A stretch of DNA of 39,375 nucleotides from Escherichia phage vB_EcoP-101136BS1, in sequence record MZ234024.1; one strand, 5' to 3'. The notes beneath the pieces are model-generated. The model saw nothing but the letters and a program-made list of their open reading frames with translations, was not told where the DNA came from and did no database searches. Positions 1 through 39,375 of this stretch are shown here, one piece after another (the first letter of the stretch is position 1; each line of letters begins with the position of its first letter). The position numbers were made by a program, and so were the translations under genes.

Positions 1-3000
1 ATGCAGGAACGAGAGGATCGCTCTACGTGGTTCGGTTTCGGCTCGGCTACAGAAGCTGAAGTGAAGAACTCTATGGTCGGCGTGGCTATCCGCGCTGGTC
101 AGACCGAGGACTCACTGGATGTCATTGGCGATGTGTTCAACCCAACCCGATGGAATAACCATAAGTGGTCTCGTGAGGAGCTGGACCAGATTCGTAACGC
201 TGGGGTTCTGCCTCAGTATTACGGAGTCATCACTGGTGGTTCCCCTCAGAACCTGACTGAGCTGATTAACTTGGCGCTTGAGAACCAGAAGTTGGACCAA
301 GAGAAGGCCAAGGCCGGGACTGGTGCTCAACTGGCGGCTGGTGTGATTGGTGCTGGCGTGGACCCTCTGACCTACGTTCCTATTGCTGGGCAGGTAGGTA
401 AAGGTGGGAAGCTAGTCAACAAGATGTTCACTGTGGCTGCTCAGTCTGGTGCTCTGGCTGGGGCATCCGAGATTGCTCGAACCTCAGTTGCTGGTGGGGA
501 CGCTCATGTGGCTGAGGCAATTATGGGCGGTGCTCTCTTCGGTGGGGGAATGACAGCTATCGGGGACGCTATCGGCAAGGCCTTAGGCAAGTCAACCAAC
601 GAGTTCGCCGGACCAGCCACACGTCTGGAAGCCCGTGAGACTGCACGTAATGTTGATGGTCAGGACCTGTCGCGTATGCCAATCCGTGAAGGAGAGGAGA
701 CCTTTAGTCATCAAGGTGTTAAGTTCGCAGACGTTCCGAACGAGCCGGGTAGTGTACGACTGGAAGATGGTTCAATCCTGATTGGTGAGAATCCTCTGAA
801 CCCTAAGACACGTAAAGTCTTTGACGAAGTGATTGAGCCTGAACGTGCCGCTGCTGGTGTGAACCTTGGTGGGCTGACTGAGATTGGCCTGAAGCTGCTT
901 CGGTCCGAGAACCCTGAGATTCGTGGAGTAGCTGCTGACTTAGTACGTTCACCGACTGGTATGCAGTCTGGGGCCTCAGGTAAAATAGGGACAACTGCGT
1001 CAGACGTATTCGAGAGACTTCGTGCTGTGGACCATCGGTTCTACAATGACATCGACGATGCGGTTACTGAGGCACTAAAGGACCCGTACTTCCAGACAGC
1101 ATTCTGGCGAGACTCTGGCGCATTCCGTCAAGACATCTATCAGCGCGTGTCTATGGCTATCGAAGATGGTAGCGGAAACCTGAAGGCTGAATTGACTCCG
1201 GGAGAACTGAAAGTCTATGACCTGCTGAAGAACCAGTTTGACGCCAAGCGTGAGATGATGGAGAACCCGGCGATGTTTGGTCGCCCAGACGCTCAGTCTA
1301 TCTTTCCGGGTAGCCGCTTCAAGGGAACATACGTCCCGCATGTGTATAGCAACCAGATGAAGGAGCTGTACATCAAGGAGCTTGGGAGTCCAGAGGCACT
1401 ACAGGAGGCCATCAAGAAGTCATGGTTGACCAGCTATGCGTCTCGACCTGAAGTCAAGAAACGTGTGGACGAGGCACTCTTAGAGGCTGACCCTACGTTG
1501 ACTCCAGAAGGACTTGCGGCTGCGGTCGATAAGTACGCCAACGATAAGGCTTATGGTATCTCTCACACCGAGCAGTTCGAGCGTTCATCCGTAATGGAAG
1601 AGAACATCAATGGTCTGGTGGGTCTGGAGAACAACAGCTTCCTTGAGGCTCGTAACCTGTTCGATAGCGATATGTCAATCGTCCTACCTAACGGTCAGAC
1701 CTTCAGTGTCAACAACCTGCGTGAGTGGGACATGGACAAGATTGTCCCGGCCTACAACCGTCGAGTTAATGGCGATATTGCTATCATGGCTGGTACAGGC
1801 AAGACCACGAAGGACATGAAGGACTTGGTTGAGACCCTGATGAACAAGGCTGGGGATGACGGTAAGTTGAAAGGTGAAGTATCTACATTACGTGACACTT
1901 TGAAGATTCTAACTGGTCGTGCTCGACGTGATGGTGCTGATGATGCGGCCTTCGCTACCGTGATGCGCACAATGACAGACCTATCGTTCTTCGCTAAGAA
2001 TGCCTACATGGGTGTTCAGAACTTAACGGAGATTGGTGGTATGCTGGCTCGTGGTAACGTTCGTGCAATGCTTCATGGAGTCCCAATTTTCCGTGACCTA
2101 GCCTTCCGTAACAAGAAGGTTGGGGCCTCAGAGATTAAGGACCTGCACAATGTTATCTTCGGTAAGGAACTGGATGACTCAATCCGTCCGTCTAAACAGG
2201 ATGTCATTGACCGTCTGCGATCTTACAGTGACCTCGGTCGTGGTACAGCTACAGCTCTGGGGACTGCCAAGTATTACACTGGCGAACTTGCAGTACGCTC
2301 TCCGTTCACTAAAGTCCTCAACGGTACGACCAACTACCTGTTAGATGCTGGACGTCAGGGCTTCCTGTCTGACATCGTGGAGCATAGCCTGACTGGTAGT
2401 AAGCGTAAGTTCGATGACCGCTGGCTGAAGACCGCTGGTATCTCTGACGAGCAGTGGAAGGGCATTAAGTCCCTAATCCGTGAGTCAGTGACTCGTGGTC
2501 CAGACGGGAAGTACACCATCAAGGATAAGAAGGCGTTCAGTCAGGACCCAAGGGCTATGGACCTCTGGCGTATGGGTGACACCATCGCTGATGAGACCCT
2601 GCTACGTCCCCACAAGCTGAGCAACATGGACGCCAAGGCTTATGGTCCGATAGCGAAGACTGTCTTGCAGTTTAAGAACTTCGTTATCAAGTCTATCAAC
2701 GGTCGAACCATGCGTACCTTCTACAATGCCACCAAGAACAACCGAGCTATGGACGCTGCGCTGTCAACGGTTATGTCTATGGGTCTGGCTGGAATGTACT
2801 ACATGGCTCAGGCGCACATAAAGGCTTACGCTATGCAGGACGGTCGTGACCGAGAGTATCTGAAGCAAGCCCTTAACCCAACAATGATTGGCTATGCGGC
2901 GCTGTCCCGTAGCTCCCACTTAGGTGGTCCTCTTGGGGTCGCCAACATTCTGGGTGGAATCGCTGGGTATGAGGACACTAAGATGCTCCGCTCGTCAATC

Positions 3001-3303
3001 CTTCCGCGCTCACCTACCGAGAAGACGGAGAAGCCAATCGCCTTTGGTGCTGCTTCCAGTGGTCCGGTAATGAATGTGGTCGGCAACTTCCTTGAGCAGG
3101 TCCCGGCTTTCGGCTATGCTGCTAACGTTGGTGCTACGGCTTACAACTTGGCGGGATACCTCAAGGCGGATACCCGTGTCAACGAGCGAGACTACATGAC
3201 CGGGATGTATAACACGTTCCGTGAACTTGTACCGAATGACCCGATTACCCAGAAGTTGCTGCTTGGAACGTTTGAGGAGCAGGGCATCCACATCAAGGAC
3301 TAA
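1..3303 (+). CDS. gp16: internal virion protein D (gp16), C-terminal 1100 codons; the 5' part of the same gene is at 38791..39375
   Basis: ORF is open from base 1 with no start. Translation shares long conserved blocks with T7 gp16 as recalled (LEARETARN, RSPTGMQSGASGK, RRVNGDIAIM, FFAKNAYMG, NGTTNYLLDA, DPRAMDLWR, ELVPNDP). Frame is continuous with the ORF running off the window end. Confidence 0.9.
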   Translation: MQEREDRSTWFGFGSATEAEVKNSMVGVAIRAGQTEDSLDVIGDVFNPTRWNNHKWSREELDQIRNAGVLPQYYGVITGGSPQNLTELINLALENQKLDQEKAKAGTGAQLAAGVIGAGVDPLTYVPIAGQVGKGGKLVNKMFTVAAQSGALAGASEIARTSVAGGDAHVAEAIMGGALFGGGMTAIGDAIGKALGKSTNEFAGPATRLEARETARNVDGQDLSRMPIREGEETFSHQGVKFADVPNEPGSVRLEDGSILIGENPLNPKTRKVFDEVIEPERAAAGVNLGGLTEIGLKLLRSENPEIRGVAADLVRSPTGMQSGASGKIGTTASDVFERLRAVDHRFYNDIDDAVTEALKDPYFQTAFWRDSGAFRQDIYQRVSMAIEDGSGNLKAELTPGELKVYDLLKNQFDAKREMMENPAMFGRPDAQSIFPGSRFKGTYVPHVYSNQMKELYIKELGSPEALQEAIKKSWLTSYASRPEVKKRVDEALLEADPTLTPEGLAAAVDKYANDKAYGISHTEQFERSSVMEENINGLVGLENNSFLEARNLFDSDMSIVLPNGQTFSVNNLREWDMDKIVPAYNRRVNGDIAIMAGTGKTTKDMKDLVETLMNKAGDDGKLKGEVSTLRDTLKILTGRARRDGADDAAFATVMRTMTDLSFFAKNAYMGVQNLTEIGGMLARGNVRAMLHGVPIFRDLAFRNKKVGASEIKDLHNVIFGKELDDSIRPSKQDVIDRLRSYSDLGRGTATALGTAKYYTGELAVRSPFTKVLNGTTNYLLDAGRQGFLSDIVEHSLTGSKRKFDDRWLKTAGISDEQWKGIKSLIRESVTRGPDGKYTIKDKKAFSQDPRAMDLWRMGDTIADETLLRPHKLSNMDAKAYGPIAKTVLQFKNFVIKSINGRTMRTFYNATKNNRAMDAALSTVMSMGLAGMYYMAQAHIKAYAMQDGRDREYLKQALNPTMIGYAALSRSSHLGGPLGVANILGGIAGYEDTKMLRSSILPRSPTEKTEKPIAFGAASSGPVMNVVGNFLEQVPAFGYAANVGATAYNLAGYLKADTRVNERDYMTGMYNTFRELVPNDPITQKLLLGTFEEQGIHIKD

Positions 3304-3321
3304 ACTATCACTATAGGAAAC
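3299..3321 (+). promoter_or_regulatory. phage RNAP promoter (phi17 position), CTAAACTATCACTATAGGAAAC
   Basis: One of 11 copies of the same ~20-nt motif with a TATAGG initiation region, placed just upstream of the tailspike gene as phi17 is in T7. Confidence 0.8.
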
Positions 3322-3367: not shown

Positions 3368-5548
3368 ATGTCCACGATTACACAATTCCCTTCAGGAAAC
3401 ACTCAGTACAGGATAGAGTTCGACTACCTAGCCAGAACGTTTGTTGTTGTTACGCTGGTGAATAGCTCTAACCCTACCCTGAACCGTGTACTGGAAGTTG
3501 GTCGAGATTACCGATTCCTTAATCCAACGATGATTGAGATGTTGGCTGACCAATCAGGTTTCGACATCGTTCGTATTCACCGTCAGACTGGAACTGACTT
3601 AGTGGTAGACTTCAGGAATGGCTCAGTGTTGACAGCTAGTGACCTGACCAATTCAGAGCTTCAGGCTATCCATATTGCAGAAGAAGGTCGAGACCAAACG
3701 GTTGACTTAGCTAAGGAATATGCCGATGCTGCTGGTAGCTCTGCTGGCAACGCTAAGGATAGCGAGGACGAAGCACGCCGAATCGCTGCGAGTATCAAGG
3801 CAGCTGGTAAAATTGGCTATATTACCCGTCGCTCCTTCGAGAAAGGCTTCAACGTTACAACATGGAACGAGGTCCTGCTATGGGAAGAGGATGGTGATTA
3901 TTACCGCTGGGATGGTACGCTTCCAAAGAACGTTCCCGCTGGTTCAACTCCTGAATCATCTGGTGGTATTGGGCTGAGTGCGTGGGTTAGTGTTGGTGAT
4001 GCGTCACTTAGAGCAAACCTGGCTGATAGTGATGGCGCTAAATACATAGGCAGTGGAGAAAGGACATTACTTGAGCACAACAATGATGTTTTGCACTCAA
4101 AAGACTTTCCAACACTGCAGGCAGCTATAGATGCATCTTTGCAAAAAAATGATCTACTGGTGTCTCCTGGCAATTATACTGAAAAAGTTACTATTGGAAA
4201 CGCGCAGTTAAAAGGTGTTGGCGGGGCCACGGTACTAAAAACTCCGGCAGACTTTACAAACACTGTTCAGGTTAATTTAGCTACACCTCATTGGCAATTC
4301 CGCCATAGTGGTGGTTTTGCTATAGATGGTTCCGGGACAACCGGGGCCGTAGGTATTAGTTTTGACCCGTCAGACCAATATTCCGGACGTCATAATTTTA
4401 GTGATGTATACATCCACAACATCAACAAGGCCATTCAGAAGCCTTCCGGGAACATCGGCAATACTTGGAGAAATATTGGGATATCTACGTGTGATTGGGG
4501 GTATTACGCGATTAGTGGCTCAGAGATGCATTGCGGGGCCGATACCCTCTACAATATCCACTTCGATGGCATCTCCACCTATGCAGTCTATCTAGACGGC
4601 ACTGTCGATAATGGCGGGGGGGGCGCATGGTGGCTTAAAGACTCCATTATTGAGGCTTCCGGAGGTGGCGGGATATACTTAAAAAGTAAATCGGGCGACT
4701 GTCCTACATCTCCATGCGGGGTATCCAATATATGGATGGAAGCGATCGCAACATCACCGGCTGTTCAGGTAGACGGCGTGGCGCAAAAACCGCGAGTTCT
4801 CAAGTTGGTAGACACAGCGATATTCTTTGCTGAGTATTCTTATCTCAACAACATCGAGCTATCCAACTCCAACTTAGTAACTTATGGTTGCCGTTTTGAC
4901 AACGCTGATGGCAATCAGGATATTGTCGTGGATGCACAAAGTACCATTGTAGCCCATGACGTGTATTTAAACGGCAGTTCTGGAAAGGACGTTATTGTGG
5001 AGTCCGTAGCATCGCAATCTGCAACGATAGCTGCCACAAACTTATCTCTGAGGGGCAACTTAACAAGAGGGAGAGTATTTAATACGCCGACAGGGAATAA
5101 ATTAATGGCTATCACATTTGACTCAGGTAGCCATAATTTTTCTGGCAGCGGCACCGTTAACGGTTCGACTGTATCTGACGGACTTCACGCCGCTACATGT
5201 ACCGAATTTTCATTCCCCGGAGCCGGTTTATATGAAATGATAGCGACAAGAACAACCATTACATCCGGTAGATGGTACGTGTGGGGAGTTAACTCACGCC
5301 TACAATCTGGCTCGGCGGATATTAGTATAACGTTAGGTATTACCATGGGTAGTGTTTACACAAAGCCGGGGGAGTGGATTAGCACTTTCGGTGTAGGAAA
5401 GGCATCTACCACTGGCACTGTAGCGCTATACGTTTCCACAGGAGGAGGTTCGGGAGCTACGGTCAGATTCAGTGACTTTTTCATCGCTGAGTTTACGACG
5501 CAAGCTCAGGCTTTAGCTTTCGCCAATTCAAGGATGTCGTTATCATAA
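3368..5548 (+). CDS. gp17: tail fiber/tailspike (gp17) with T7-like N-terminal anchor and a long non-T7 C-terminal domain, possibly a beta-helix polysaccharide depolymerase
   Basis: Strong RBS AAAGGAGG upstream. N-terminal ~150 aa resemble the T7 gp17 adaptor region (EFDYLARTFVVVTL, LVDFRNGSVL). Remainder is Gly/Asn/Ser/Thr-rich with no T7 fiber similarity. Confidence 0.85.
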   Translation: MSTITQFPSGNTQYRIEFDYLARTFVVVTLVNSSNPTLNRVLEVGRDYRFLNPTMIEMLADQSGFDIVRIHRQTGTDLVVDFRNGSVLTASDLTNSELQAIHIAEEGRDQTVDLAKEYADAAGSSAGNAKDSEDEARRIAASIKAAGKIGYITRRSFEKGFNVTTWNEVLLWEEDGDYYRWDGTLPKNVPAGSTPESSGGIGLSAWVSVGDASLRANLADSDGAKYIGSGERTLLEHNNDVLHSKDFPTLQAAIDASLQKNDLLVSPGNYTEKVTIGNAQLKGVGGATVLKTPADFTNTVQVNLATPHWQFRHSGGFAIDGSGTTGAVGISFDPSDQYSGRHNFSDVYIHNINKAIQKPSGNIGNTWRNIGISTCDWGYYAISGSEMHCGADTLYNIHFDGISTYAVYLDGTVDNGGGGAWWLKDSIIEASGGGGIYLKSKSGDCPTSPCGVSNIWMEAIATSPAVQVDGVAQKPRVLKLVDTAIFFAEYSYLNNIELSNSNLVTYGCRFDNADGNQDIVVDAQSTIVAHDVYLNGSSGKDVIVESVASQSATIAATNLSLRGNLTRGRVFNTPTGNKLMAITFDSGSHNFSGSGTVNGSTVSDGLHAATCTEFSFPGAGLYEMIATRTTITSGRWYVWGVNSRLQSGSADISITLGITMGSVYTKPGEWISTFGVGKASTTGTVALYVSTGGGSGATVRFSDFFIAEFTTQAQALAFANSRMSLS

Positions 5549-6257: not shown

Positions 6258-6707
6258 ATGCTCGAATTTTTAAAGAGAGCGGCTCCGTGGTTACTTGCAG
6301 CAGTGATGTTTGCTGGTGGCTACCGCACCGCTAACAATAAGTGGGAGGCTAAGGTCAATGCAGAATACACCTCGAATCTTAAGGCATCGGAAGATACAAG
6401 GCTTGCTGTCCAAGCTGAAGTCAACAAAGTGTCCAAACGGTTTCAGGACGAAATGTCCTCGCTGGAAGGCAGCACTGATAGGATTATTGCTGACCTTCAG
6501 TCTGACAATAAGCGGTTGCGCATCCGAGTCAAACCAACGAGTGGAACCACGCAAAGTGACGGTCGATGCTTCATTGATGGTTACGCCGAACTTGACGAAC
6601 GAGATGCTAAACGTCTTATCGCCATCGGAGTGAAAGGAGACAAGTGGATTAAGGCCCTTCAAGACACTGTGAGAGCCTTACAGCAAGAGAAGGAGGTGAC
6701 GCATTGA
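6258..6707 (+). CDS. gp18.5: Rz-like i-spanin (gp18.5)
   Basis: 149 aa; N-terminal membrane anchor; matches T7 gp18.5 ([29 protein letters not shown]). Confidence 0.85.
6358..6633 (+). CDS. gp18.7: Rz1-like o-spanin lipoprotein (gp18.7) embedded in the +1 frame of Rz
   Basis: Matches T7 gp18.7 ([18 protein letters not shown] lipobox, [10 protein letters not shown]). Start is uncertain; the open frame begins at 6310. Confidence 0.7.
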   Translation: MQNTPRILRHRKIQGLLSKLKSTKCPNGFRTKCPRWKAALIGLLLTFSLTISGCASESNQRVEPRKVTVDASLMVTPNLTNEMLNVLSPSE

Positions 6708-8467
6708 GTAAAGACTTAGTGGCGCGTCAGGCGCTAATGACTGCACGTATGAAGTCAGACTTCGTGTTCTTCCTGTTCGTCCTGTGGAAAGCTCTGTCGC
6801 TCCCAGTCCCTACTCGCTGTCAGATTGACATGGCGAAGAAACTATCGGCTGGGGACAACAGGCGCTTCATCCTACAAGCGTTCCGTGGTATAGGGAAGTC
6901 CTTCATTACGTGTGCCTTCGTTGTCTGGAAGCTATGGAACAACCCAGACTTGAAGTTCATGATTGTGTCGGCCTCAAAGGAACGAGCCGATGCTAACTCC
7001 ATCTTCATCAAGCGAATCATCGACCTCATGCCTCAGCTTCAGGAACTCAAACCTAAGCAGGGTCAGCGAGATGCGGTTATCAGCTTCGACGTTGGACCGG
7101 CTAAGCCAGACCACTCACCTTCGGTTAAGTCCGTTGGTATCACTGGTCAGTTGACTGGTAGTCGTGCTGACATCCTGATTGCCGATGACGTGGAGGTTCC
7201 GAACAACTCAGCGACTCAGGCTGCACGAGACCGTCTATCAGAGCTTGTGAAAGAGTTCGACGCTATCCTGAAGCCGGGAGGTACGATCATCTATCTGGGT
7301 ACTCCTCAGAACGAGATGACACTGTATCGTGAGCTGGAAGGTCGTGGGTACACCACTACTATCTGGCCCGCTCGTTATCCACGCGACAGGAAGGACTGGC
7401 AGTCTTACGGTGACCGTCTGGCACCGATGCTTCAGGCAGAGCTTGAAGAGGACCCTGAGTCCTTCTACTGGCGTCCGACTGATGAAGTACGCTTCGATGA
7501 TACGGACCTGAAGGAGCGTGAGCTGTCCTACGGTAAAGCTGGCTTCGCTCTACAGTTCATGCTTAACCCGAACCTGAGTGATGCTGAGAAGTATCCTCTT
7601 AAGCTCCGTGACCTTATCGTAGCCGACTTGGACCCAGCGTCCAGCCCAATGGTCTACCAATGGTTGCCAAACCCTCAGAACAAGCGTGAGGACGTTCCTA
7701 ACGTGGGACTCATGGGTGACTCGTACCACACGTATCAGACTGTAGGTTCTGCCTTCAGCTCATACACCCAGAAGATTCTGGTCATTGACCCTAGTGGTCG
7801 TGGTAAGGATGAAACTGGTTATGCGGTACTGTATCAGCTCAACGGCTACATCTTCGCTATGGAAGTAGGTGGTATGCGTGGTGGCTATGAAGACTCTACT
7901 CTGGAAGCACTGGCTAAGATTGGTCGTAAGTGGAAGGTCAACGAATACGTCATTGAGGGTAACTTCGGTGATGGTATGTACCTTGAGCTATTCAAGCCTG
8001 TAGCGGCCCGTATCCATCCTGCTGCTGTAACCGAAGTGAAGAGTAAGGGTCAGAAAGAACTCCGCATCTGTGACGTTCTTGAGCCTATCATGGGGTCTCA
8101 CCGACTTATCGTCAACGCTGCTGCTATCGTCCAAGACTATCAGACAGCCTCTGACAAGGATGGTGTTCGTAACCCTATCTACTCTCTCTTCTACCAGATG
8201 ACACGTATCTCTCGTGAACGTGGAGCCTTGGCACACGATGACCGACTTGATGCGCTAGCTATAGGTGTACAGTTCTTCGTTGAGTCTATGGCTAAGGATG
8301 CCAACAAGGGAGAACGTGAAGTCACTGAGGAGTGGCTGGAGGAACAGATGGAGAACCCACGGAAAGGCTTCGAGTCCATCCACACTGAGTTCTGGGACAA
8401 TGGGGTCCGGGTAACTCACAATACGGACGACGAGCTTGGACTAGGGTCATACGTTACGTTCCACTAG
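6704..8467 (+). CDS. gp19: terminase large subunit (gp19)
   Basis: 587 aa (T7 gp19 is 586); extensive identity including [69 protein letters not shown]. Confidence 0.95.
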
Positions 8468-9126: not shown

Positions 9127-9163
9127 TGACGATGAGTTTTGGACCAAAAGTTTGAGACCACAT

Positions 9164-9346
9164 CTCACACTTCAAGAACCTCAAGTCTCCCCATAGGCCC
9201 TCTTTAAGTCCAGACCAAAGGCCCTACCCCAGTCTATCATAAGGTTAGACCGATGGTCCAGACTTCAGGTCAACGATAGGTCTAGGCTATGGCTTAGGGA
9301 AGGACGATAGGTTGGGACTATGGGTCTTCTTTGAGTCTCTATCTGT
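9164..9346. repeat. candidate terminal-repeat region with the genome left end near TCTCACA (9164)
   Basis: TCTCACA followed ~29 nt later by CCCCATAGG, and ending near CTATCTGT, mirrors landmarks of the T7 160-bp terminal repeat as recalled. Boundaries cannot be fixed from a collapsed assembly. Confidence 0.3.
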
Positions 9347-9480
9347 ATAACCATAAGTCACAACCATAGGTCACAGCCTACCTCTCACAACCATAAGTCA
9401 TAACCTACAGTCTCACTAACCTACAGTCTCAACCATAAGACACCAACACCTACAGTCATAGACCTACAGTTAATAGACAC
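9335..9480. repeat. array of short direct repeats (ACCTACAGTC x4, ACCATAAG(T/A)C x3) in the left-end non-coding region
   Basis: Repeats read directly at 9403, 9417, 9447 and 9461, and 9351, 9379 and 9431. Confidence 0.6.
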
Positions 9481-10182: not shown

Positions 10183-10184
10183 GA

Positions 10185-29243: not shown

Positions 29244-29262
29244 ACTATCACTATAGGAACAA
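29240..29262 (+). promoter_or_regulatory. phage RNAP promoter (phi9 position)
   Basis: CTAAACTATCACTATAGGAACA, overlapping the gp8 stop. Confidence 0.85.
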
Positions 29263-29296
29263 CGTCTGGTCTACAATTTGTAGGTTTCTAGTCCAG

Positions 29297-30217: not shown

Positions 30218-30219
30218 TT

Positions 30220-30242
30220 GACTAAACTATCACTATAGGGAG
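30220..30242 (+). promoter_or_regulatory. phage RNAP promoter (phi10 position), best consensus copy
   Basis: CTAAACTATCACTATAGGGAGAC, with the same +1 to +6 GGGAGA as T7. Confidence 0.9.
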
Positions 30243-30345
30243 ACCAAGAGACAGACTCAAGGTTTCCCTATTACTTCAGTCCATACGGATTGGGCATACA
30301 GTAAGTAATAAACTTTATCTTTCAATTGAATAGGAGAATTATCAT

Positions 30346-31395
30346 ATGGCAAACGTTCCGGGTCAGAAAGTTGGTACAGACCAAGGTAAAGGCAAATCTG
30401 GTTCCGACGCTCTGGCGTTGTTCCTGAAGGTCTTTGCTGGCGAAGTCCTGACAGCATTCACTCGCCGCTCTGTAACTGCTGACAAGCATATTGTCCGTAC
30501 CATTCAGAACGGTAAGTCTGCTCAGTTCCCGGTCATGGGTCGCACCTCTGGTGTGTATCTGGCTCCGGGTGAGCGACTGTCCGATAAGCGTAAAGGTATC
30601 AAACATACCGAGAAAGTGATTACCATTGATGGTCTGCTGACTGCCGATGTGATGATTTTCGACATTGAAGACGCGATGAACCACTATGACGTGGCTGGCG
30701 AGTACTCCAACCAGTTGGGCGAAGCTCTGGCTATCGCTGCCGATGGTGCGGTACTGGCTGAGATGGCTATTCTGTGTAACCTACCGGCTGCATCTGATGA
30801 AAACATCGCTGGTCTTGGCAAAGCGTCTGTGCTGGAAGTTGGTACTAAAGCAGACCTGAACACTCCGGCTAAGCTGGGTGAAGCAATCATCGGTCAACTG
30901 ACCATTGCTCGTGCGAAGCTGACATCCAACTACGTTCCTGCTGGCGACCGTTACTTCTACACCACGCCGGACAACTACTCTGCAATCCTCGCGGCTCTGA
31001 TGCCGAACGCTGCTAACTATGCTGCGCTGATTGACCCAGAGACTGGTAACATCCGTAACGTAATGGGCTTCGTGGTTGTTGAAGTTCCACACTTGACTCA
31101 GGGTGGTGCTGGGGAAACTCGTGGTGCCGATGGTATCACTATTGCGACTGGTCAGAAGCACGCCTTCCCAGCTACTGCTACTGGTGATGTTAAAGTTGCT
31201 CTGGACAACGTTGTGGGCCTGTTCTCTCACCGTTCTGCTGTAGGTACTGTTAAGCTGCGTGACTTGGCGCTGGAACGTGACCGTGACGTCGATGCTCAGG
31301 GCGACCTGATTGTTGGTAAGTACGCTATGGGTCACGGTGGTCTGCGTCCAGAAGCAGCAGGCGCACTGGTTTTCACAGCGGCGTCAGCGGGTTAA
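30346..31395 (+). CDS. gp10A: major capsid protein (gp10A)
   Basis: 349 aa; ALFLKVFAGEVLTAF, KSAQFPV, YLAPGE, KHTEKVITIDGLLTADV, DIEDAMNHYDV, SAILAALMPNAANYAALIDPE, RNVMGF, VVEVPHLT, RSAVGTVKLRDLALER, KYAMGHGGLRPEAAGA match T7 gp10A. Confidence 0.97.
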   Translation: MANVPGQKVGTDQGKGKSGSDALALFLKVFAGEVLTAFTRRSVTADKHIVRTIQNGKSAQFPVMGRTSGVYLAPGERLSDKRKGIKHTEKVITIDGLLTADVMIFDIEDAMNHYDVAGEYSNQLGEALAIAADGAVLAEMAILCNLPAASDENIAGLGKASVLEVGTKADLNTPAKLGEAIIGQLTIARAKLTSNYVPAGDRYFYTTPDNYSAILAALMPNAANYAALIDPETGNIRNVMGFVVVEVPHLTQGGAGETRGADGITIATGQKHAFPATATGDVKVALDNVVGLFSHRSAVGTVKLRDLALERDRDVDAQGDLIVGKYAMGHGGLRPEAAGALVFTAASAG

Positions 31396-31658
31396 CGACC
31401 TTTAAGGCCCTCTCTACAGAGGGTCCTACCTTAGAGACGTATAGTTCTACGGTGGGAACCAGCCTGAAGGTTGACTTCCCTGAGCTTTCAGATGTGACCG
31501 ATTGGTCGCTGCTTGAGGTGACTACGCCTGATGGTGTTAGCTACTCCCGTAGAACCAACAGTCTCTACTTCAAGGCCACCTCTGGCGTGGAAGGTCTGGT
31601 GATTGTTGGGTATGACGGGACGCCTGTGCGTTCCTTCAACGTATCTTTCACAAACTAA
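31371..31658 (+). CDS. gp10B: predicted -1 frameshift extension of the capsid protein (gp10B-like minor capsid), 96 codons
   Basis: Heptamer G GTT TTC at 31368-31374, 7 codons before the gp10A stop. The -1 frame is open from there to 31658 (checked codon by codon), ending just before the terminator. Confidence 0.6.
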   Translation, partial: FHSGVSGLTTFKALSTEGPTLETYSSTVGTSLKVDFPELSDVTDWSLLEVTTPDGVSYSRRTNSLYFKATSGVEGLVIVGYDGTPVRSFNVSFTN

Positions 31659-31659
31659 T

Positions 31660-31703
31660 TGAAACCCCTTGGGTGCCTTCGGGTGCTTGAGGGGTTTTTT
31701 TTG
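31660..31703 (+). terminator. intrinsic terminator (T7 T-phi-like)
   Basis: GAAACCCCTTGGGTGCC-TTCG-GGTGCTTGAGGGGTT followed by U8; resembles T7 T-phi (AACCCCTTGGGGCCTCTAAACGGGTCTTGAGGGGTTTTTTG). Confidence 0.85.
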
Positions 31704-31717
31704 CTTAAGGAGGGACT

Positions 31718-31807
31718 ATGGTCCTTATTTACACAGGGTTAGCACTATTCGTCTTATTCTGGGCGTACCTGCTGTCCAGCTCACCGTCTAGCGCCTATGA
31801 CCGTTAA
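31718..31807 (+). CDS. possible small hydrophobic peptide, 29 aa
   Basis: Strong RBS TAAGGAGGG, 4 nt spacer; MVLIYTGLALFVLFWAYLLSSSPSSAYDR. Too short to score. Confidence 0.3.
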   Translation: MVLIYTGLALFVLFWAYLLSSSPSSAYDR

Positions 31808-31818
31808 GGAGTAAACCT

Positions 31819-32385
31819 ATGGCTCAATACATTCCACTGAATGCTAACGATGACTTAGATGCCATCAACGATATGTTAGCAGCTATCGGTGAACCAGCAG
31901 TCCTACAGCTTGACGAAGGTAACGCTGACGTCTCGAACGCTCAACGTATCCTGCATCGTGTCAATCGTCAGGTCCAAGCTAAAGGCTGGAACTTTAACAT
32001 CAACGAAGCTGCTGTCCTGACACCTGATGTCCAAGACAATAGGATTCGATTCCTGCCGTCTTACCTTCGGGTCATGACTGCTGGTGCTACCAGTTACTAC
32101 AGCAACATGGGGGGCTATCTCTATGACCTGTCCACTCAGTCCACGACCTTCACTGGACCAATTACAGTCGAACTGGTGGAGATGAAACCGTTCGCTGAGA
32201 TGCCTGTAGTATTCCGTGACTACATCGTTACCAAGGCTAGCCGTGAGTTCAACGCTAAGTTCTTCGGTAGCCCAGAGTCTGAACTGTACCTTCGTGAGCA
32301 GGAAGCAGAACTCTACCAGCAGGTGATGGAGTACGAGATGGACACTGGTCGCTACAACATGATGTCCGACATCGGGAGGGACTAA
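31819..32385 (+). CDS. gp11: tail tubular protein A (gp11)
   Basis: 188 aa; ILASIGEP, ANA.RIL..NRQ.Q..GW.FNI.E, IVTKASR.FN..FFG.PE, EYEMD.G.YNM shared with T7 gp11. Confidence 0.92.
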   Translation: MAQYIPLNANDDLDAINDMLAAIGEPAVLQLDEGNADVSNAQRILHRVNRQVQAKGWNFNINEAAVLTPDVQDNRIRFLPSYLRVMTAGATSYYSNMGGYLYDLSTQSTTFTGPITVELVEMKPFAEMPVVFRDYIVTKASREFNAKFFGSPESELYLREQEAELYQQVMEYEMDTGRYNMMSDIGRD

Positions 32386-32612
32386 TGGCTAGTCACAACC
32401 TGAAGATTCACCGCCAGCACTTTGGTCCGGTACAACTGGGTCTAAAGACAGCAGAGCTGAGACTTAACGACCGGGACTTTAAGGTTGGCGACTGGCTTAT
32501 CCTGAATGAGTGGGACAACGGGTATACTGGACAACAGGTAGCACGTAAGGTTGTCCACATTGCTGACGTTGGTGACATCGCTGAGGGATACGTCCTAATG
32601 AGTATGATTTAA
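32385..32612 (+). CDS. ASCH/PUA-like small protein (DUF3850-like), 75 aa
   Basis: Contains GLKTAELR, matching the ASCH GxKxxExR signature, then DRDFKVGDWLIL. Start overlaps the gp11 stop; ends 10 nt before gp12. Confidence 0.6.
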   Translation: MASHNLKIHRQHFGPVQLGLKTAELRLNDRDFKVGDWLILNEWDNGYTGQQVARKVVHIADVGDIAEGYVLMSMI

Positions 32613-32621
32613 GGAGAGCCT

Positions 32622-34979
32622 ATGCCATTAATTACGCAAAGCATAAAAAATCTTAAAGGTGGTATTAGCCAGCAGCCAGACATACTGAGGTTCTCAGACC
32701 AAGGCGAGGCACAAGTTAACTGCTGGTCATCCGAAAGTGATGGACTCCAGAAGCGTCCACCTACAGTCTTCAAGCGACGTCTTAACATCGACGTTGGGAG
32801 CAACCCCAAGTTCCACCTGATTAACCGTGATGAGCAGGAGCAGTATTACATAGTGTTCAACGGGTCCAACATTCAGGTAGTTGACTTGAGCGGTAATCAA
32901 TACTCAGTTTCCGGTGAGGTAGACTACGTTAAATCGTCCAACCCGCGAGATGACATCCGTGTCGTTACCGTTGCAGACTATACGTTCATCGTGAACCGTA
33001 AGGTTGTCGTTAAAGGTGGAAGCGAGAAGTCACACTCTGGTTATAATCGTAAAGCACGCGCTTTAATTAACCTGCGCGGTGGACAGTATGGTCGCACCCT
33101 TAAGGTAGGAATCAACGGTGGAGTTAAGGTCTCGCATAAGCTGCCAGCAGGTAATGATGCCGAGAATGACCCACCTAAGGTGGACGCTCAAGCCATTGGT
33201 GCAGCTCTGAGAGACCTTCTTGTTGCTGCCTATCCTACCTTCACGTTCGACCTTGGGTCTGGCTTCCTGCTAATCACAGCTCCTTCAGGGACCGACATTA
33301 ACTCAGTGGAGACTGAGGATGGATACGCTAACCAGCTAATCAGCCCAGTCCTCGACACGGTGCAAACAATCTCTAAGTTGCCTCTTGCGGCTCCAAATGG
33401 GTACATCATTAAGATTCAAGGTGAGACCAACAGTAGCTCCGATGAATATTACGTGATGTATGACTCCAATACTAAGACGTGGAAGGAGACAGTAGAGCCG
33501 GGAGTGGTCACTGGGTTCGATAACACCACAATGCCACATGCTCTGGTGAGACAATCTGACGGCTCCTTTGAGTTCAAGACTCTGGACTGGTCTAAGCGGG
33601 GTGCTGGTAATGATGACACAAACCCTATGCCTAGCTTCGTGGATGCTACGATTAACGATGTGTTCTTCTACAGGAACAGGCTAGGGTTCTTGTCAGGAGA
33701 GAACGTAATCATGAGCCGTTCAGCCAGCTACTTTGCGTTCTTCCCTAAGAGTGTGGCGACATTGAGTGATGATGACCCTATTGACGTAGCTGTAAGTCAC
33801 CCTAGAATCTCAATACTTAAGTATGCCGTTCCGTTTAGCGAGCAGCTACTACTTTGGTCGGATGAGGTTCAGTTCGTGATGACAAGCTCTGGTGTCCTTA
33901 CCTCGAAGTCTATCCAGCTTGATGTAGGCTCAGAGTTTGCCTTAGGAGATAATGCCCGACCGTTCGCTGTAGGACGCTCAGTCTTCTTCTCAGCGCCTCG
34001 TGGGTCATTCACCAGCATTAAGCGATACTTCGCTGTAGCAGATGTGTCTGACGTGAAGGATGCCGATGATACCACAGGCCACGTACTGTCCTATATTCCT
34101 AACGGGGTGTTTGACATTCAAGGTACAGGGACTGAGAACTACATCTGCGTCAACTCTACAGGTGCATACAACCGAATCTACATCTACAAGTTCTTGTTTA
34201 AGGACGGCGTACAACTTCAAGCCTCTTGGTCGCACTGGGAGTTCCCTAAAGCTGATAAGATTCTGGCGTCTGCGTCGATTGGCTCTACCATGTTCATTGT
34301 TCGTCAGCACCAAGGGGGTGTGGACATTGAGCACCTTAAGTTCATCAAGGAGGCAACCGACTTTCCATTAGAGCCGTATAGACTCCACGTTGACTCCAAG
34401 GTGTCTATGGTAATCCCAATTGGCTCATATAACGCTGACACCTATGAGACTACGGTCGACATTGGTTCTGCTTATGGTGGAAACGCTCCGTCTCCCGGTC
34501 GGTACTATCTGATTGACAGTCAGGGTGCCTATGTGGACCTTGGTGAACTGACCAACATCTCAACTGTGGCTATACTCAATGGCGATTGGTCGGGACGTAC
34601 AGTGTTCATCGGACGGTCTTATCTGATGTCCTACAAGTTCTCACGGTTCCTGATTAAGATTGAAGACGATAGTGGCACTCAGTCTGAAGACACTGGACGT
34701 CTACAGCTTCGTAGGGCTTGGGTCAACTACAAGGACACTGGCGCTCTTAGACTCATTGTCAGAAACGGTGAGCGGGAGTTCGTGAACACCTTTAATGGGT
34801 ACACCCTTGGTCAGCAACCCATCGGGACTACCAACATTGGGGACGGTCAGTATCGCTTCGCTATGAATGGTAACGCATTAACCACGAGTCTAACCTTAGA
34901 GTCAGACTATCCTACCCCAGTGTCCATCGTTGGGTGTGGCTGGGAGGCGTCATACGCTAAGAAAGCTCGTTCCGTCTAA
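32622..34979 (+). CDS. gp12: tail tubular protein B (gp12)
   Basis: 785 aa (T7 gp12 is 794); position between gp11 and the phi13 promoter. Confidence 0.9.
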   Translation: MPLITQSIKNLKGGISQQPDILRFSDQGEAQVNCWSSESDGLQKRPPTVFKRRLNIDVGSNPKFHLINRDEQEQYYIVFNGSNIQVVDLSGNQYSVSGEVDYVKSSNPRDDIRVVTVADYTFIVNRKVVVKGGSEKSHSGYNRKARALINLRGGQYGRTLKVGINGGVKVSHKLPAGNDAENDPPKVDAQAIGAALRDLLVAAYPTFTFDLGSGFLLITAPSGTDINSVETEDGYANQLISPVLDTVQTISKLPLAAPNGYIIKIQGETNSSSDEYYVMYDSNTKTWKETVEPGVVTGFDNTTMPHALVRQSDGSFEFKTLDWSKRGAGNDDTNPMPSFVDATINDVFFYRNRLGFLSGENVIMSRSASYFAFFPKSVATLSDDDPIDVAVSHPRISILKYAVPFSEQLLLWSDEVQFVMTSSGVLTSKSIQLDVGSEFALGDNARPFAVGRSVFFSAPRGSFTSIKRYFAVADVSDVKDADDTTGHVLSYIPNGVFDIQGTGTENYICVNSTGAYNRIYIYKFLFKDGVQLQASWSHWEFPKADKILASASIGSTMFIVRQHQGGVDIEHLKFIKEATDFPLEPYRLHVDSKVSMVIPIGSYNADTYETTVDIGSAYGGNAPSPGRYYLIDSQGAYVDLGELTNISTVAILNGDWSGRTVFIGRSYLMSYKFSRFLIKIEDDSGTQSEDTGRLQLRRAWVNYKDTGALRLIVRNGEREFVNTFNGYTLGQQPIGTTNIGDGQYRFAMNGNALTTSLTLESDYPTPVSIVGCGWEASYAKKARSV

Positions 34980-36503: not shown

Positions 36504-38786
36504 ATGGCTAGTAATATTGAATCAGCTCTGGCTAATCGGACTATGGGTCGTGGCAGAGCGCCTGGTAAAACTATCGCCGTCAACTATCAAGCAGCCAGCG
36601 TTCAGGCTCCAACTGGCGACTCCGGTCTGGCTCGTGCGTTAACCAACTTCGTTGAGTCTGGGACAGGATTGTACAAGCAGTTCAAGGACGATGAGAAGAC
36701 CAGAGCTGACGAGCGGTCTAACGAGATTATCCGTAAGCTGACACCACAGCAAAGACGTGAGGCTATCCAGAACGGCACATTGCTGTATCAGGATGACCCT
36801 TACGCTATGGAAGCACTTCGAGTCAAGACTGGTCGTAATGCTGCCTTTGCTGTAGACGACGAGATTAACGTTAAGATTCAGAACGGTGAGTTCCGTACAC
36901 GTCAGGACATGGAAGAGTATCGCCACCAGCGACTTCAGGACGCCGCTAAGTCCTATGCTGAAGAGGCGGGTATCAACCCTACCGACGAGTTCTTCCAGCG
37001 TGGATTCAACGATAACATCACAGACCGCAACATCGCCATCTATGGGTCTTTCAATAAGTATTTCAGCAAGCAGTCTGAAGAGACAGCAATGTTGAACACT
37101 CGTATTGAGATGAACTCATTCCTGAACGATGGGGACCTGATGCGTTCTCCTGAGTCTGGAAAGACCTTCATGGCCTACCTTCGGGATGGACTAACGACTG
37201 CTGCTATCCCTTCGGACCAGCGAGCACGAGAGGTCATTACCCAGACGGTCCGTGACGCAATCCAGAAGTCAGGTGGCTCAAACTTCCTACAGCAAGTACG
37301 AGGCGAGCGAATCACCCTTAACGGTGTGGATGCTACAGTCGAAGAGATTGTAGGACCAGATGTCTTCAACGCTGCTATTGTAGAGGCCCAAGGTACTGAG
37401 TACAAGCTGGTGGCTAAGTATCAGGAAGACTTGTCGTTAGGCGTTCAGTCTGCGATTCTTCAGGATGACCCAACCATCGGTCTGGCCCAGATTCAGAAAC
37501 TCAAGGAGCAGAACAACCTGCTTCAACCGGGTGAAGAACTCACGCCTCAGCGTCAGATGCTTATTAATGCCGAAGCCAGCTTACTGGAAGCGGTCAAGCG
37601 TAAGTCTGCTGAACAAGCGAAGGAGAACACTAAGTTAATCCAGACCCAGAACAAGCAACTGGTCATCGACCAAGTGTATCAGCGACGTCTGGCCGGTGAC
37701 AACGTATCCACCAACTATGAGGACCTTCCGGTCTCTGACGCTACAGGGGAGTTCAAGCGTTCAGACATGAACAACTATGCGTCTTCCAAGCTACAGCAGA
37801 TTGACCAGATGGACATCCCTGAGGCTGCTAAGGACGCTCAGAAGGTGGCATTGTTAAGAGCTGACACTAATAACGGTCCGTTCCGTAATGCCTTCCAGAC
37901 GCTGACTCAGGACGCTGCTGGTGAGTGGCAAGCTGCGGTCATCCGTGGGCAGTACGACCCAGACAAGATGCAACGCTTCGAGTCTCTTCGTCGTGCCTAC
38001 ACTCAGGACCCTTCAAGTTTTGCTGCTCTATATCCTGACCAAGCTCAGTTGTTCTCTACGTTCGACCAGATGGACAAGATGGGTCTGGACCCTCAGACGA
38101 TGATTGAGGCTGATAAGCAAGCTGCAAGTCAAAGCCGTGAGATGCGCATGGAGTCAGACAAGGCGTGGCAGGAGTTGAAGAACGACTCTCGGAATAAGGA
38201 CCTTTCGCGTCTTCCTACGTCTCTAGACTCAAGTGCTCGTAAGGTCTGGGACTCATGGTACTATCGTACAGGTAACGCTGATGCTGCAACTCAGCAGACT
38301 CAACGCTGGCTGAATGAGAACACCGTAACGTTCCAGTCTGAAGGTTCTGATGGTAAGTCCCTCGGCATGGTGTCCAAGCACCAGCTTATGGTCGGGGATA
38401 ACCCAGAGTCGTGGCAGGTGGGTCGAGACATTATCGACACAGCTCGTCAGCAGCTCATTAAGGCCAACCCTTGGGTAGTGAACTCTCAGTTGTCCGTTGT
38501 TGAACAGAACGGCTCTATCTTCCTCCAAGACGCTACGGGGACTATTCGTATTCGATACGATAAAGAACTTGTAGGTAAACTCTACCGCGAACAACAGCAG
38601 AAGGCACAAGATGCCGCATATGCTCAGGCAGAACGTGACGCTAACAAGCGAGCGCGTATCGTCGGGACTAAAGCTGCTGGTGACAAACGTCGAGCTGACC
38701 GAGAGGCCAACATCGAGAAGCGTGGTGGGATGTACAATGACGTCTCACTGGAGGGTATCGCAAACGTACTAATCGGTAAGGAGTAA
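36504..38786 (+). CDS. gp15: internal virion protein C (gp15)
   Basis: 760 aa (T7 gp15 is 747); position between gp14 and gp16; strong RBS GAGGAGG. Confidence 0.85.
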   Translation: MASNIESALANRTMGRGRAPGKTIAVNYQAASVQAPTGDSGLARALTNFVESGTGLYKQFKDDEKTRADERSNEIIRKLTPQQRREAIQNGTLLYQDDPYAMEALRVKTGRNAAFAVDDEINVKIQNGEFRTRQDMEEYRHQRLQDAAKSYAEEAGINPTDEFFQRGFNDNITDRNIAIYGSFNKYFSKQSEETAMLNTRIEMNSFLNDGDLMRSPESGKTFMAYLRDGLTTAAIPSDQRAREVITQTVRDAIQKSGGSNFLQQVRGERITLNGVDATVEEIVGPDVFNAAIVEAQGTEYKLVAKYQEDLSLGVQSAILQDDPTIGLAQIQKLKEQNNLLQPGEELTPQRQMLINAEASLLEAVKRKSAEQAKENTKLIQTQNKQLVIDQVYQRRLAGDNVSTNYEDLPVSDATGEFKRSDMNNYASSKLQQIDQMDIPEAAKDAQKVALLRADTNNGPFRNAFQTLTQDAAGEWQAAVIRGQYDPDKMQRFESLRRAYTQDPSSFAALYPDQAQLFSTFDQMDKMGLDPQTMIEADKQAASQSREMRMESDKAWQELKNDSRNKDLSRLPTSLDSSARKVWDSWYYRTGNADAATQQTQRWLNENTVTFQSEGSDGKSLGMVSKHQLMVGDNPESWQVGRDIIDTARQQLIKANPWVVNSQLSVVEQNGSIFLQDATGTIRIRYDKELVGKLYREQQQKAQDAAYAQAERDANKRARIVGTKAAGDKRRADREANIEKRGGMYNDVSLEGIANVLIGKE

Positions 38787-38790
38787 CATA

Positions 38791-39375
38791 ATGGCGACTC
38801 GTGGTATTCGCAATAACAATCCGGGTAACATCCGGGTAAGTAAGGACCAATGGGAAGGAATGACTGGAGATGATGGCGCATTCGTCACCTTCGATAGTCC
38901 AGAGTCTGGCGTCCGAGCTTTAGGTAAAAACCTGCTGTCCTACGGTCGCCAAGGTTATGATTCCATCGAGAAGATTATCAACAGATGGGCACCTCCTAAC
39001 GAGAACGACACTAAGGCTTATATTGACTCAGTGGTGGCTGCAACTGGTATTCCAGCTACACAGAGTCTCGACCTATCGGACCCTGACACCCTGTCTTCTC
39101 TGGCTCAAGCTATCAGCTTCCATGAGACAGGCTCCCGGTACGACCCTGAAGTCTATCAGAAGGGAGTCGCACGAGCACTCAATGGCATTAGCCCAAAGAC
39201 TCCACCAGTAAGCGCTAACGTATTTGACGCACTCACGGAAGGACTCAAGGCTAAACCTAAAGTAGCTCTTGGCGAGAACCTTCCGACCGCTGCTGGTCTA
39301 AACATTGAGGGTCAAGCACCTGAAGCTCCCAACGAATCGTTCGGTGAGATGTTCTATAAGTCTACTGGCGAGACC
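38791..39375 (+). CDS. gp16: internal virion protein D (gp16), N-terminal 195 codons, running off the window end and continuing in frame at 1..3303
   Basis: ATG at 38791 after RBS AAGGAG; no stop before the window end; 585 nt is exactly 195 codons, so base 1 starts a new codon. N-terminus (RNNNPGNIR...) does not resemble the T7 gp16 SLT domain. Confidence 0.8.
   Translation, partial: MATRGIRNNNPGNIRVSKDQWEGMTGDDGAFVTFDSPESGVRALGKNLLSYGRQGYDSIEKIINRWAPPNENDTKAYIDSVVAATGIPATQSLDLSDPDTLSSLAQAISFHETGSRYDPEVYQKGVARALNGISPKTPPVSANVFDALTEGLKAKPKVALGENLPTAAGLNIEGQAPEAPNESFGEMFYKSTGET

What the first reader, a model, noticed from the sequence alone, without database searches (positions are those of the whole stretch)
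1..39375. Window is a whole T7-like phage genome opened inside gp16
The ORF at 38791..39375 has a start but no stop, and the ORF at 1..3303 has a stop but no start. Length 585 nt is exactly 195 codons, so the two join in frame into a ~1295-aa gp16 (T7 gp16 is 1318 aa). The 39.4-kb length and the complete T7 gene order support a circularised assembly of a linear, terminally redundant genome.
Basis: partly seen in the sequence, partly recalled or inferred. Interest (0 to 1): 0.45.

Follow-up and report, generated by a model that had tools for sequence, protein, structure and literature searches.

The report
Phage genome record opened inside gene 16
The window is the complete genome of a known T7-like E. 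coli phage (Kayfunavirus vB_EcoP-101136BS1) written out from an arbitrary point inside gene 16, which splits that gene across the two ends; this is an ordinary record-layout artefact, not biology.

Summary
ORF 38791..39375 (ATG, 585 nt, no stop) and ORF 1..3303 join in frame. The result is a 3888-nt, 1295-aa gene with a single stop at its end.

The joined protein aligns without gaps to gp16 of K1F (97.9%) and LM33_P1 (98.4%), both also 1295 aa, and to the 1295-aa PDB chain 9vvp_L. The 120 nt around the junction are identical to LM33_P1. The junction is continuous in 195 phage records.

The window is GenBank MZ234024, phage vB_EcoP-101136BS1, 39,375 bp. Its 1100-aa product of 1..3303 is exactly QZI79868.1.

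The real genome ends are far from the junction. A single collapsed copy of the about 177-bp direct terminal repeat lies at 9163..9339, matching K1F's exact 178-bp repeat. The packaged DNA would be about 39,552 bp.

Three corrections:
- Positions 1-3 are an ATG (Met196), so the deposited record calls a truncated gp16.
- At least nine sister records share this origin, so it is a deliberate convention, not a random break.
- The severed N-terminal 195 aa carry an Enc34-type muralytic domain, not T7's SLT transglycosylase.

This is already known and of low interest, apart from the annotation error.

The parts
38791..39375 (+). gene 16, 5' part: codons 1-195. Residues about 3-122 form an Enc34-type (PHA02564) lysozyme-fold muralytic domain. 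Residues about 125-195 begin the region homologous to T7 gp16.
   Evidence: ATG with a GGAG 7 nt upstream, open to the last base. Residues 1-195 align with residues 1-195 of PDB 9vvp_L at E 3e-125, and with the Enc34 endolysin 7q47 at E 5e-15. No Pfam SLT match, unlike T7 gp16.
1..3303 (+). gene 16, 3' part: codons 196-1295 plus the TAA stop. The ATG at 1-3 is the internal Met196. GenBank annotates this piece alone as a 1100-aa CDS (QZI79868.1).
   Evidence: 53.5% identity to T7 gp16 residues 152-1315. PHROG 342 'internal virion protein with endolysin domain' covers residues 6-1293 of the joined protein.
39375..39375 (.). Artificial record origin: the 39375/1 junction lies between codons 195 and 196 of gene 16.
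   Evidence: No gap and no lost or duplicated base relative to K1F and LM33_P1; 120/120 nt identical to LM33_P1. A single 12.4-kb BLAST alignment runs across it. No end overlap of 10 nt or more. Same origin in MZ234009, 11, 21-23 and 44-47.
9163..9339 (.). Single collapsed copy of the direct terminal repeat (about 177 bp). The inferred physical left end is at 9163 (TCTCACAC...). The inferred right end is at 9339 (...TTTGAGTCTC).
   Evidence: K1F carries an exact 178-bp repeat at both ends. K1F bases 1-178 and 39527-39704 both map to window 9163-9339 at 94.9% identity. The first bases match the T7 and K1F termini TCTCACAG. There is only one copy in the window. The LM33_P1 record starts at window 9171 and ends at window 9170.
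9349..9443 (.). Array of about seven 13-bp repeats (AACCATAAGTCAC) directly to the right of the terminal repeat.
   Evidence: Tandem Repeats Finder, also visible in the alignment. That it corresponds to the short-repeat arrays beside the T7 terminal repeat is an inference from knowledge of T7.
36504..38786 (+). gene 15 (internal virion protein C), immediately upstream of gene 16.
   Evidence: 46% identity to T7 gp15. Annotated as gp15 in K1F and 22664BS1.
3368..5548 (+). gene 17 (tail fibre or spike, 726 aa), immediately downstream of gene 16.
   Evidence: Pfam Phage_T7_tail N-terminal domain and Tail_spike_N. PHROG 27367. 99.6% amino-acid identity to the LM33_P1 tail fibre.
6704..8467 (+). 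gene 19 (terminase large subunit), the last large gene before the physical right end.
   Evidence: 65% identity to T7 gp19. Annotated as terminase in relatives.
12070..14751 (+). gene 1 (single-subunit RNA polymerase), the hallmark of T7-like phages.
   Evidence: 62.6% identity to T7 gp1 over its full length.

Best explanation
The window is the deposited genome of the lytic E. coli podophage vB_EcoP-101136BS1 (GenBank MZ234024; Autographiviridae, Studiervirinae, Kayfunavirus, LM33_P1/K1F group).

The virion DNA is linear, with a direct terminal repeat of about 177 bp (inferred from K1F). Short-read assembly merged the two repeat copies, so the contig closed on itself (inferred). The sequence was then written out from an origin shared by the whole series of phages from that study: the ATG of codon 196 of gene 16.

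As a result, gene 16 is split. Codons 1-195 lie at 38791..39375 and codons 196-1295 at 1..3303.

The true ends are at about 9163 (left) and 9339 (right), between gene 19 and the early region. The packaged molecule would be about 39,552 bp.

Intact gp16 is the 1295-aa internal core and ejectosome protein. It has an N-terminal Enc34-type cell-wall hydrolase domain and a C-terminal body homologous to T7 gp16. That body is known from T7 to form part of the DNA-ejection channel.
For: The join is in frame and 1295 aa long, with one stop at the end.

It aligns without gaps to K1F gp16 (97.9%) and LM33_P1 gp43 (98.4%), both 1295 aa. The 120 nt across the junction are identical to LM33_P1.

PDB 9vvp_L, also 1295 aa, aligns over residues 1-1295.

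The junction is continuous in 195 phage records, including K1F.

The whole genome is collinear with LM33_P1 (96.8% over 38.4 kb), K1F and 22664BS1. One alignment runs straight across 39375/1.

The T7 core gene order 0.3 to 19 is recovered after rotating the window to 9163.

K1F's exact 178-bp terminal repeat maps once, to 9163-9339.

K1F-group repeats of 179-190 bp were reported, and those of SH3-SH5 were determined by run-off sequencing, in PMC4925675.

The product of 1..3303 is exactly QZI79868.1 of vB_EcoP-101136BS1, from a contig of 39,375 bp. Table 1 of PMC8614997 lists 101136BS1 at 39,375 bp as MZ234024.

That study's methods were MiSeq, SPAdes and Prokka, with no mention of termini.

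At least nine sister records are opened at the same base.
Against: No reads are available, so collapse of the repeat and circularisation are inferred, not observed.

The window ends share no overlap of 10 nt or more. Any assembler overlap had therefore been trimmed already.

The repeat boundaries are transferred from K1F at 95% identity and could differ by a few bases in this phage.

Why this particular ATG was chosen as origin is a guess: probably the first CDS that Prokka called on an earlier broken contig.
Confidence: 0.95

Rival explanations
1. The window ends are the real physical ends of the virion DNA, so 38791..39375 and 1..3303 are two separate or truncated genes.
For: The record is deposited as linear. 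Bases 1-3 are an ATG, so a gene caller accepts 1..3303 as a CDS.
Against: The upstream ORF has no stop. The join reproduces a 1295-aa protein found intact in K1F, LM33_P1, PDB 9vvp and 195 records. The window ends carry no terminal repeat. The K1F terminal sequence lies at 9163-9339 instead. Met196 has no Shine-Dalgarno sequence upstream.
Confidence: 0.01
2. The genome is circularly permuted and packaged by a headful mechanism, so it has no fixed ends and any opening point is equally valid.
For: The sequence closes on itself seamlessly. No read data are available to exclude permutation.
Against: The region 9163-9339 is 95% identical to K1F's exact terminal repeat. It begins with the conserved T7/K1F terminal motif TCTCACA. 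Close relatives SH3-SH5 had fixed ends with 183-190 bp repeats shown by run-off sequencing. The terminase is 65% identical to that of T7, which is known to cut concatemers at specific sites.
Confidence: 0.02
3. The opening is simply the random break point of the assembler's contig, not a chosen origin.
For: SPAdes contigs of repeat-ended phage genomes break at arbitrary positions. This is general knowledge; the use of SPAdes is.
Against: Only 1.9% of positions begin an ATG, and fewer are in frame in a gene. At least nine independently assembled sister genomes, with different tail genes and lengths, start at the homologous base. There is no k-mer overlap at the ends.
Confidence: 0.03

Closest known systems
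Escherichia phage LM33_P1 (LT594300) and vB_EcoP-22664BS1 (MZ234009), species Kayfunavirus LM33P1
   Same: Collinear over the whole genome: 96.8% identity over 38.4 kb to LM33_P1 and 97.8% over 39.1 kb to 22664BS1. gp16 has the same length and is 98.4% identical. The tail fibre is 99.4-99.6% identical.
   Different: The window has an extra 392-bp endonuclease VII gene between genes 13 and 14. It also has diverged patches around 19.8-20.5 kb and 24.8-25.2 kb. The LM33_P1 record is opened near the left physical end, so its gp16 is intact.
Escherichia phage K1F (DQ111067), type member of Kayfunavirus
   Same: Same gene order. gp16 is 1295 aa and 97.9% identical. The terminal-repeat sequence is 95% identical.
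   Different: The K1F record carries both copies of the 178-bp repeat. K1F also has an endosialidase tail spike and a homing endonuclease inside its DNA polymerase gene. The window has one repeat copy, an LM33_P1-type tail fibre and an uninterrupted polymerase gene.
Phage T7 gp16 (internal virion protein D, ejectosome; PDB 7eyb, 7k5c)
   Same: Same position between genes 15 and 17. Similar size, 1295 against 1318 aa. 53.5% identity over residues 125-1295.
   Different: T7's N-terminus is a Pfam SLT lytic transglycosylase domain. The window's N-terminal about 125 aa do not align with it. Instead they match the Enc34 endolysin catalytic domain, PDB 7q47, family PHA02564.
Collapsed-repeat ('circular') short-read assemblies of phages with direct terminal repeats
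   Same: One repeat copy, a seamless closure and an arbitrary origin that cuts a gene.
   Different: No assembler overlap remains at the ends. The origin was standardised across a series of records.

Membership tests
T7-like phages (Autographiviridae, Studiervirinae) | Encodes a single-subunit T7-type RNA polymerase in the early region | tested here: met
   Window 12070..14751 is 62.6% identical to T7 gp1 over residues 1-883.
T7-like phages (Autographiviridae, Studiervirinae) | All genes on one strand, in the conserved order early, then DNA metabolism, then structural and packaging (0.3 to 19) | tested here: met
   31 of 44 T7 proteins have homologues. All are on the + strand and collinear after rotation to 9163, except a mobile HNH. 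Collinear with K1F and LM33_P1.
T7-like phages (Autographiviridae, Studiervirinae) | Conserved phage-polymerase promoters spread along the genome | tested here: met
   10-12 copies of CTAAACTATCACTATAGG on the + strand, in intergenic positions such as 3300, 8563, 15300, 26401, 29240, 30222 and 35012. Promoter activity itself was not tested.
T7-like phages (Autographiviridae, Studiervirinae) | Linear virion DNA with short direct terminal repeats | tested here: inconclusive
   A homologue of K1F's exact 178-bp repeat is present once, at 9163-9339. Duplication at the two ends cannot be seen in a collapsed record and needs reads or run-off sequencing.
Genus Kayfunavirus, species Kayfunavirus LM33P1 | Nucleotide identity over the whole genome above the genus (about 70%) and species (about 95%) thresholds | tested here: inconclusive
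   The genus threshold is clearly met. For 22664BS1, which NCBI places in species LM33P1, identity is 97.8% over 39,067 of 39,375 bases. For LM33_P1 itself it is 96.8% over 38,365 bases, so identity times coverage is about 94%, which is borderline.
gp16 / internal virion protein D (ejectosome) | A protein of about 1300 aa encoded between genes 15 and 17, homologous to T7 gp16 over its body | tested here: met
   1295 aa after the join. 53.5% identity to T7 gp16 residues 152-1315. PHROG 342 over residues 6-1293. Matches PDB 7eyb, 7k5c and 9vvp.
gp16 / internal virion protein D (ejectosome) | N-terminal SLT-type lytic transglycosylase domain, as in T7 | tested here: not met
   T7 gp16 residues 15-127 match Pfam SLT at E 5e-31. 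Window residues 1-195 match no Pfam family. They match the Enc34 endolysin domain 7q47 at E 5e-15. The protein is a gp16 orthologue with a swapped enzyme domain, so the GenBank name 'lytic exotransglycosylase' is unsupported.
Circularised assembly of a terminally redundant linear genome | The two record ends abut without gain or loss of bases when compared with independently sequenced relatives | tested here: met
   Ungapped protein and DNA alignment across the junction. Continuous in 195 records.
Circularised assembly of a terminally redundant linear genome | Reads span the junction, with roughly two-fold coverage and read-start peaks at the true repeat | not testable with these tools
   No read data are available. 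Only the methods (MiSeq, SPAdes) are known.

The most novel reading that the evidence does not exclude
The in-frame ATG at window 1-3 (Met196) might be a real internal start. It would give a 1100-aa gp16 isoform without the muralytic domain, in the way T7 makes gp4A and gp4B. In that case the deposited 'truncated' CDS would correspond to a real second product. Nothing here supports this: there is no Shine-Dalgarno sequence upstream, and no such isoform is known to me for T7 gp16. Sequence alone cannot exclude it.
Probability: 0.02. Interest if true: 0.3.

Novelty: already known. Interest (0 to 1): 0.07.

Why it matters
The biological significance is small. This is a known phage of a well-studied genus, and the split gene is a bookkeeping artefact.

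The practical value lies in curation:
- MZ234024 and at least nine sister records give gp16 as a 1100-aa protein.
- The last 585 nt of each record are left unannotated.
- The missing 195 residues are exactly the ones that carry the cell-wall-degrading domain.
- The product name 'lytic exotransglycosylase' does not fit the domain family actually present.

The original paper also counted point mutations in 'CDS 001', which is this truncated gene. Anyone using these records should rotate them to the terminal repeat at about window 9163 and re-call gene 16. That applies to protein databases, endolysin surveys and phage engineering alike.

Tried and rejected
- Exact overlap between the two window ends, as an assembler signature: none of 10 nt or more.
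- A second copy of the terminal repeat in the window: none, only chance matches of 11-12 nt.
- Pfam and NCBIfam on gp16 or its N-terminal 195 aa: no family matched. The domain was identified only through PHROGs and the PDB sequence search.
- Fetching MZ234024 from the local collections: not held. Identity was established instead by an exact protein look-up.
- Exact look-up of the joined 1295-aa protein: not in the collection.
- Reading Scholl and Merril 2005 (the K1F genome paper) by DOI: not held. The K1F repeat length comes from the sequence itself and from the citation in PMC4925675.
- An IMG/VR scan with the 41-nt junction sequence: one contig of 39,300 bp that holds it internally. This adds little beyond and was not pursued.
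- Separate genes, real ends inside gene 16 and headful permutation were all considered and rejected (see the rival explanations).
Full report
**1. The observation**

The sequence at 38780-38793 reads GGAG TAA CATA ATG. That is the gp15 stop at 38784-38786, a Shine-Dalgarno sequence, and an ATG at 38791. The frame from this ATG stays open to the last base of the window, 585 nt or 195 codons. The frame that begins at base 1 is open to a TAA at 3301-3303.

Joining the end to the start gives 3888 nt. The product is 1295 aa with a single stop, at the end.

One statement is literally wrong. The ORF at 1..3303 does have a start codon, because bases 1-3 are ATG. This is codon 196 of the joined gene. 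The 20 nt before it (ATAAGTCTACTGGCGAGACC) hold no ribosome-binding site, whereas the 38791 ATG has a GGAG.

**2. Is the join real?**

An in-frame join alone has a 1-in-3 chance. The comparison with relatives is decisive.

- The gp16 genes of K1F (28714..32601) and LM33_P1 (29165..33052) are also exactly 3888 nt.
- The joined protein aligns to them end to end with no gap, at 97.9% and 98.4% identity.
- The residues around the junction (EMFYKSTGET|MQEREDRSTWF) are the same as in LM33_P1. The 120 nt around the junction are identical to LM33_P1 and differ from K1F at 4 positions, without indels.
- A 1323-nt query built across the junction is continuous in 195 phage records.
- A solved structure, PDB 9vvp chain L ('Gp29', 1295 aa), aligns over residues 1-1295.

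No base has been lost or duplicated at 39375/1.

**3. What the window is**

The nearest records are Kayfunavirus phages (Autographiviridae, Studiervirinae): 22664BS1, 101118UKE1, LM33_P1 and K1F.

After rotating the window to start at 9163, it is collinear with LM33_P1 (96.8% over 38.4 kb), 22664BS1 (97.8% over 39.1 kb) and K1F (93.8% over 34.4 kb). One 12.4-kb alignment runs straight across 39375/1.

Of 44 T7 proteins tested, 31 have homologues. All are in T7 order from 0.3 to 19, except an HNH endonuclease in a different place. gp0.7 and a dozen small accessory proteins have no match.

A family of 10-12 copies of CTAAACTATCACTATAGG lies in intergenic positions on the coding strand. This is the expected set of phage-polymerase promoters.

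The 1100-aa product of 1..3303 is exactly GenBank QZI79868.1, 'peptidoglycan lytic exotransglycosylase [Escherichia phage vB_EcoP-101136BS1]'. It is recorded on one contig of 39,375 bp. Table 1 of Loose et al. 2021 (PMC8614997) lists 101136BS1 at 39,375 bp under accession MZ234024. The window is therefore that record. It is not held in the local phage collection.

**4. Where the real ends are**

K1F's record has an exact 178-bp direct repeat at its two ends. PMC4925675 cites 179 bp for K1F. It also determined 183-190 bp repeats in the K1F-like phages SH3-SH5 by run-off sequencing.

K1F bases 1-178 and 39527-39704 both map to window 9163-9339, at 94.9% identity. The window sequence there begins TCTCACAC. 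K1F and T7 begin TCTCACAG. The LM33_P1 record starts at window 9171 and ends at window 9170.

The 177-bp stretch occurs only once in the window. An array of 13-bp repeats follows it at 9349-9443.

So the window holds one collapsed copy of the terminal repeat, between gene 19 (which ends at 8467) and the early region. The packaged molecule is inferred to run 9163 to 39375, then 1 to 9339, about 39,552 bp.

This is what a short-read assembler produces from a terminally redundant linear genome. The paper used MiSeq, SPAdes and Prokka, and never mentions termini or circularity. The collapse itself is inferred, because no reads can be examined here.

**5. Why this opening point**

The window ends share no overlap, and the first base is the A of an in-frame ATG. 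Only 1.9% of positions start an ATG.

Nine sister records from the same study are opened at the homologous base: MZ234009, 11, 21, 22, 23 and 44-47. They differ in length and in their tail genes. Where I looked, they annotate 1..3303 as CDS 001 and leave the last 585 nt without a feature.

The origin is therefore a shared convention, not a random break. My guess is that the first genome's contig broke inside gene 16, that Prokka called the first in-frame ATG, and that all the genomes were then set to start at 'CDS 001'. This guess is untested.

**6. What was cut off**

BLASTP aligns the joined protein to T7 gp16 only from residue 125 (T7 residue 152) onward, at 53.5% identity. The T7 gp16 structures 7eyb and 7k5c match the same range.

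T7's N-terminus is a Pfam SLT lytic transglycosylase domain (E 5e-31). The window's N-terminal 195 aa match no Pfam or NCBIfam model. They do match the catalytic domain of the Hafnia phage Enc34 endolysin (PDB 7q47, E 5e-15, residues 3-122).

The Enc34 domain belongs to family PHA02564. It has a lysozyme-like fold, shows muralytic activity, and was proposed to be a beta-N-acetylglucosaminidase (PMC8943055).

The enzyme domain of this gp16 therefore lies entirely in the 585-nt piece at the window's 3' end. The deposited 1100-aa 'lytic exotransglycosylase' lacks it, and the name does not fit the domain family. The full 1295-aa sequence is absent from the 15-billion-protein collection.

**7. Mechanism**

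Shown here:
- one gene, split by the record origin;
- a single internal repeat copy;
- whole-genome collinearity with relatives.

From established knowledge of T7:
- Concatemers are cut by terminase at specific sites, producing direct terminal repeats.
- gp14, gp15 and gp16 leave the capsid core and form the ejection channel.
- The gp16 N-terminal enzyme opens the peptidoglycan.

Inferred:
- repeat collapse and circularisation during assembly;
- the reason for the choice of origin;
- the exact repeat boundaries in this phage.

**8. Rivals**

- Real ends inside gene 16, or two separate genes. Rejected: the upstream ORF has no stop, the join is seamless, there is no repeat at the window ends, and the K1F terminal sequence lies elsewhere.
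- Headful packaging with circular permutation. Unlikely: the terminal sequence is conserved, the terminase is T7-type, and relatives have experimentally fixed ends.
- A random assembler break. Unlikely: the origin is shared across the sister records and falls on an ATG.

**9. Verdict**

The finding is an ordinary artefact in a known, deposited phage genome. Its only value is as a curation flag for MZ234024 and its sister records.

Noticed in passing
window 35511-35912 (insertion 35513-35906): A 133-aa endonuclease VII-type gene (Pfam Endonuclease_7, E 9e-28; PHROG 2633) sits between genes 13 and 14. It is absent from the three nearest relatives, K1F, LM33_P1 and 22664BS1. Only 7 of 128 matching records carry it at this site, among them EcoDS1 gp13.5 and Hafnia phage yong1. 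The sporadic distribution suggests a mobile (homing) endonuclease.
   Followed up: partly
window 38791-39375 (gp16 residues 1-195): The N-terminal enzyme domain of gp16 is of the Enc34 endolysin type (PHA02564, PDB 7q47), not the SLT transglycosylase of T7 gp16. The GenBank product name 'peptidoglycan lytic exotransglycosylase' is attached to the 1100-aa fragment, which lacks any muralytic domain.
   Followed up: yes
GenBank MZ234009, MZ234011, MZ234021-23, MZ234044-47 (loci L001, L006): At least nine sister records from the same study are opened at the same base. Where checked, they annotate gp16 as a 1100-aa CDS at 1..3303 and leave the last 585 nt unannotated. The paper reports point mutations accumulating in this 'CDS 001'.
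   Followed up: partly
window 3368-5548: The tail fibre or spike (726 aa) is 99.6% identical to that of LM33_P1. From memory, LM33_P1 is reported to be specific for O25b E. coli (ST131). The same receptor specificity would be predicted here. The host-range data in the paper were not checked.
   Followed up: no
window 3300, 8563, 11979, 15300, 17166, 18041, 20423, 26401, 29240, 30222, 35012 (+ strand): A family of 10-12 conserved sites, CTAAACTATCACTATAGG(G/A)A, lies in intergenic positions. These are presumably the phage RNA polymerase promoters. One lies just upstream of gene 1 (11979), a position where the T7 record annotates no phage promoter.
   Followed up: no
window 6148-6212, 15307-15371 and 22369-22389: A 65-nt element, 77% identical between its two full copies, contains an inverted repeat (GGTCATnACT...AGTGGCC). 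It lies between genes 18 and 18.5 and again after the promoter downstream of gene 1. A 21-nt partial third copy lies before gene 5. From my own knowledge of T7, the two full copies lie where T7 has RNase III processing sites. This was not tested.
   Followed up: no
window 9349-9443 and 9100-9162: About seven copies of a 13-bp unit (AACCATAAGTCAC) follow the terminal repeat directly. Repeated CCTACAGT motifs precede it. The arrangement recalls the short-repeat arrays that flank the T7 terminal repeat at the concatemer junction.
   Followed up: partly
window 24495-24920: An HNH endonuclease ORF (PHROG 1872, E 9e-26) overlaps the 3' end of the DNA polymerase gene. It lies in the least conserved stretch relative to LM33_P1 (90.6% identity, then a gap at 24854-25190). 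K1F instead has a homing endonuclease inside its polymerase gene.
   Followed up: no
window 10266-12070 (early region): No homologue of the T7 gp0.7 protein kinase, or of about a dozen small T7 accessory genes, was found by tblastn. An Ocr (gp0.3) homologue is present at 10266-10772.
   Followed up: no
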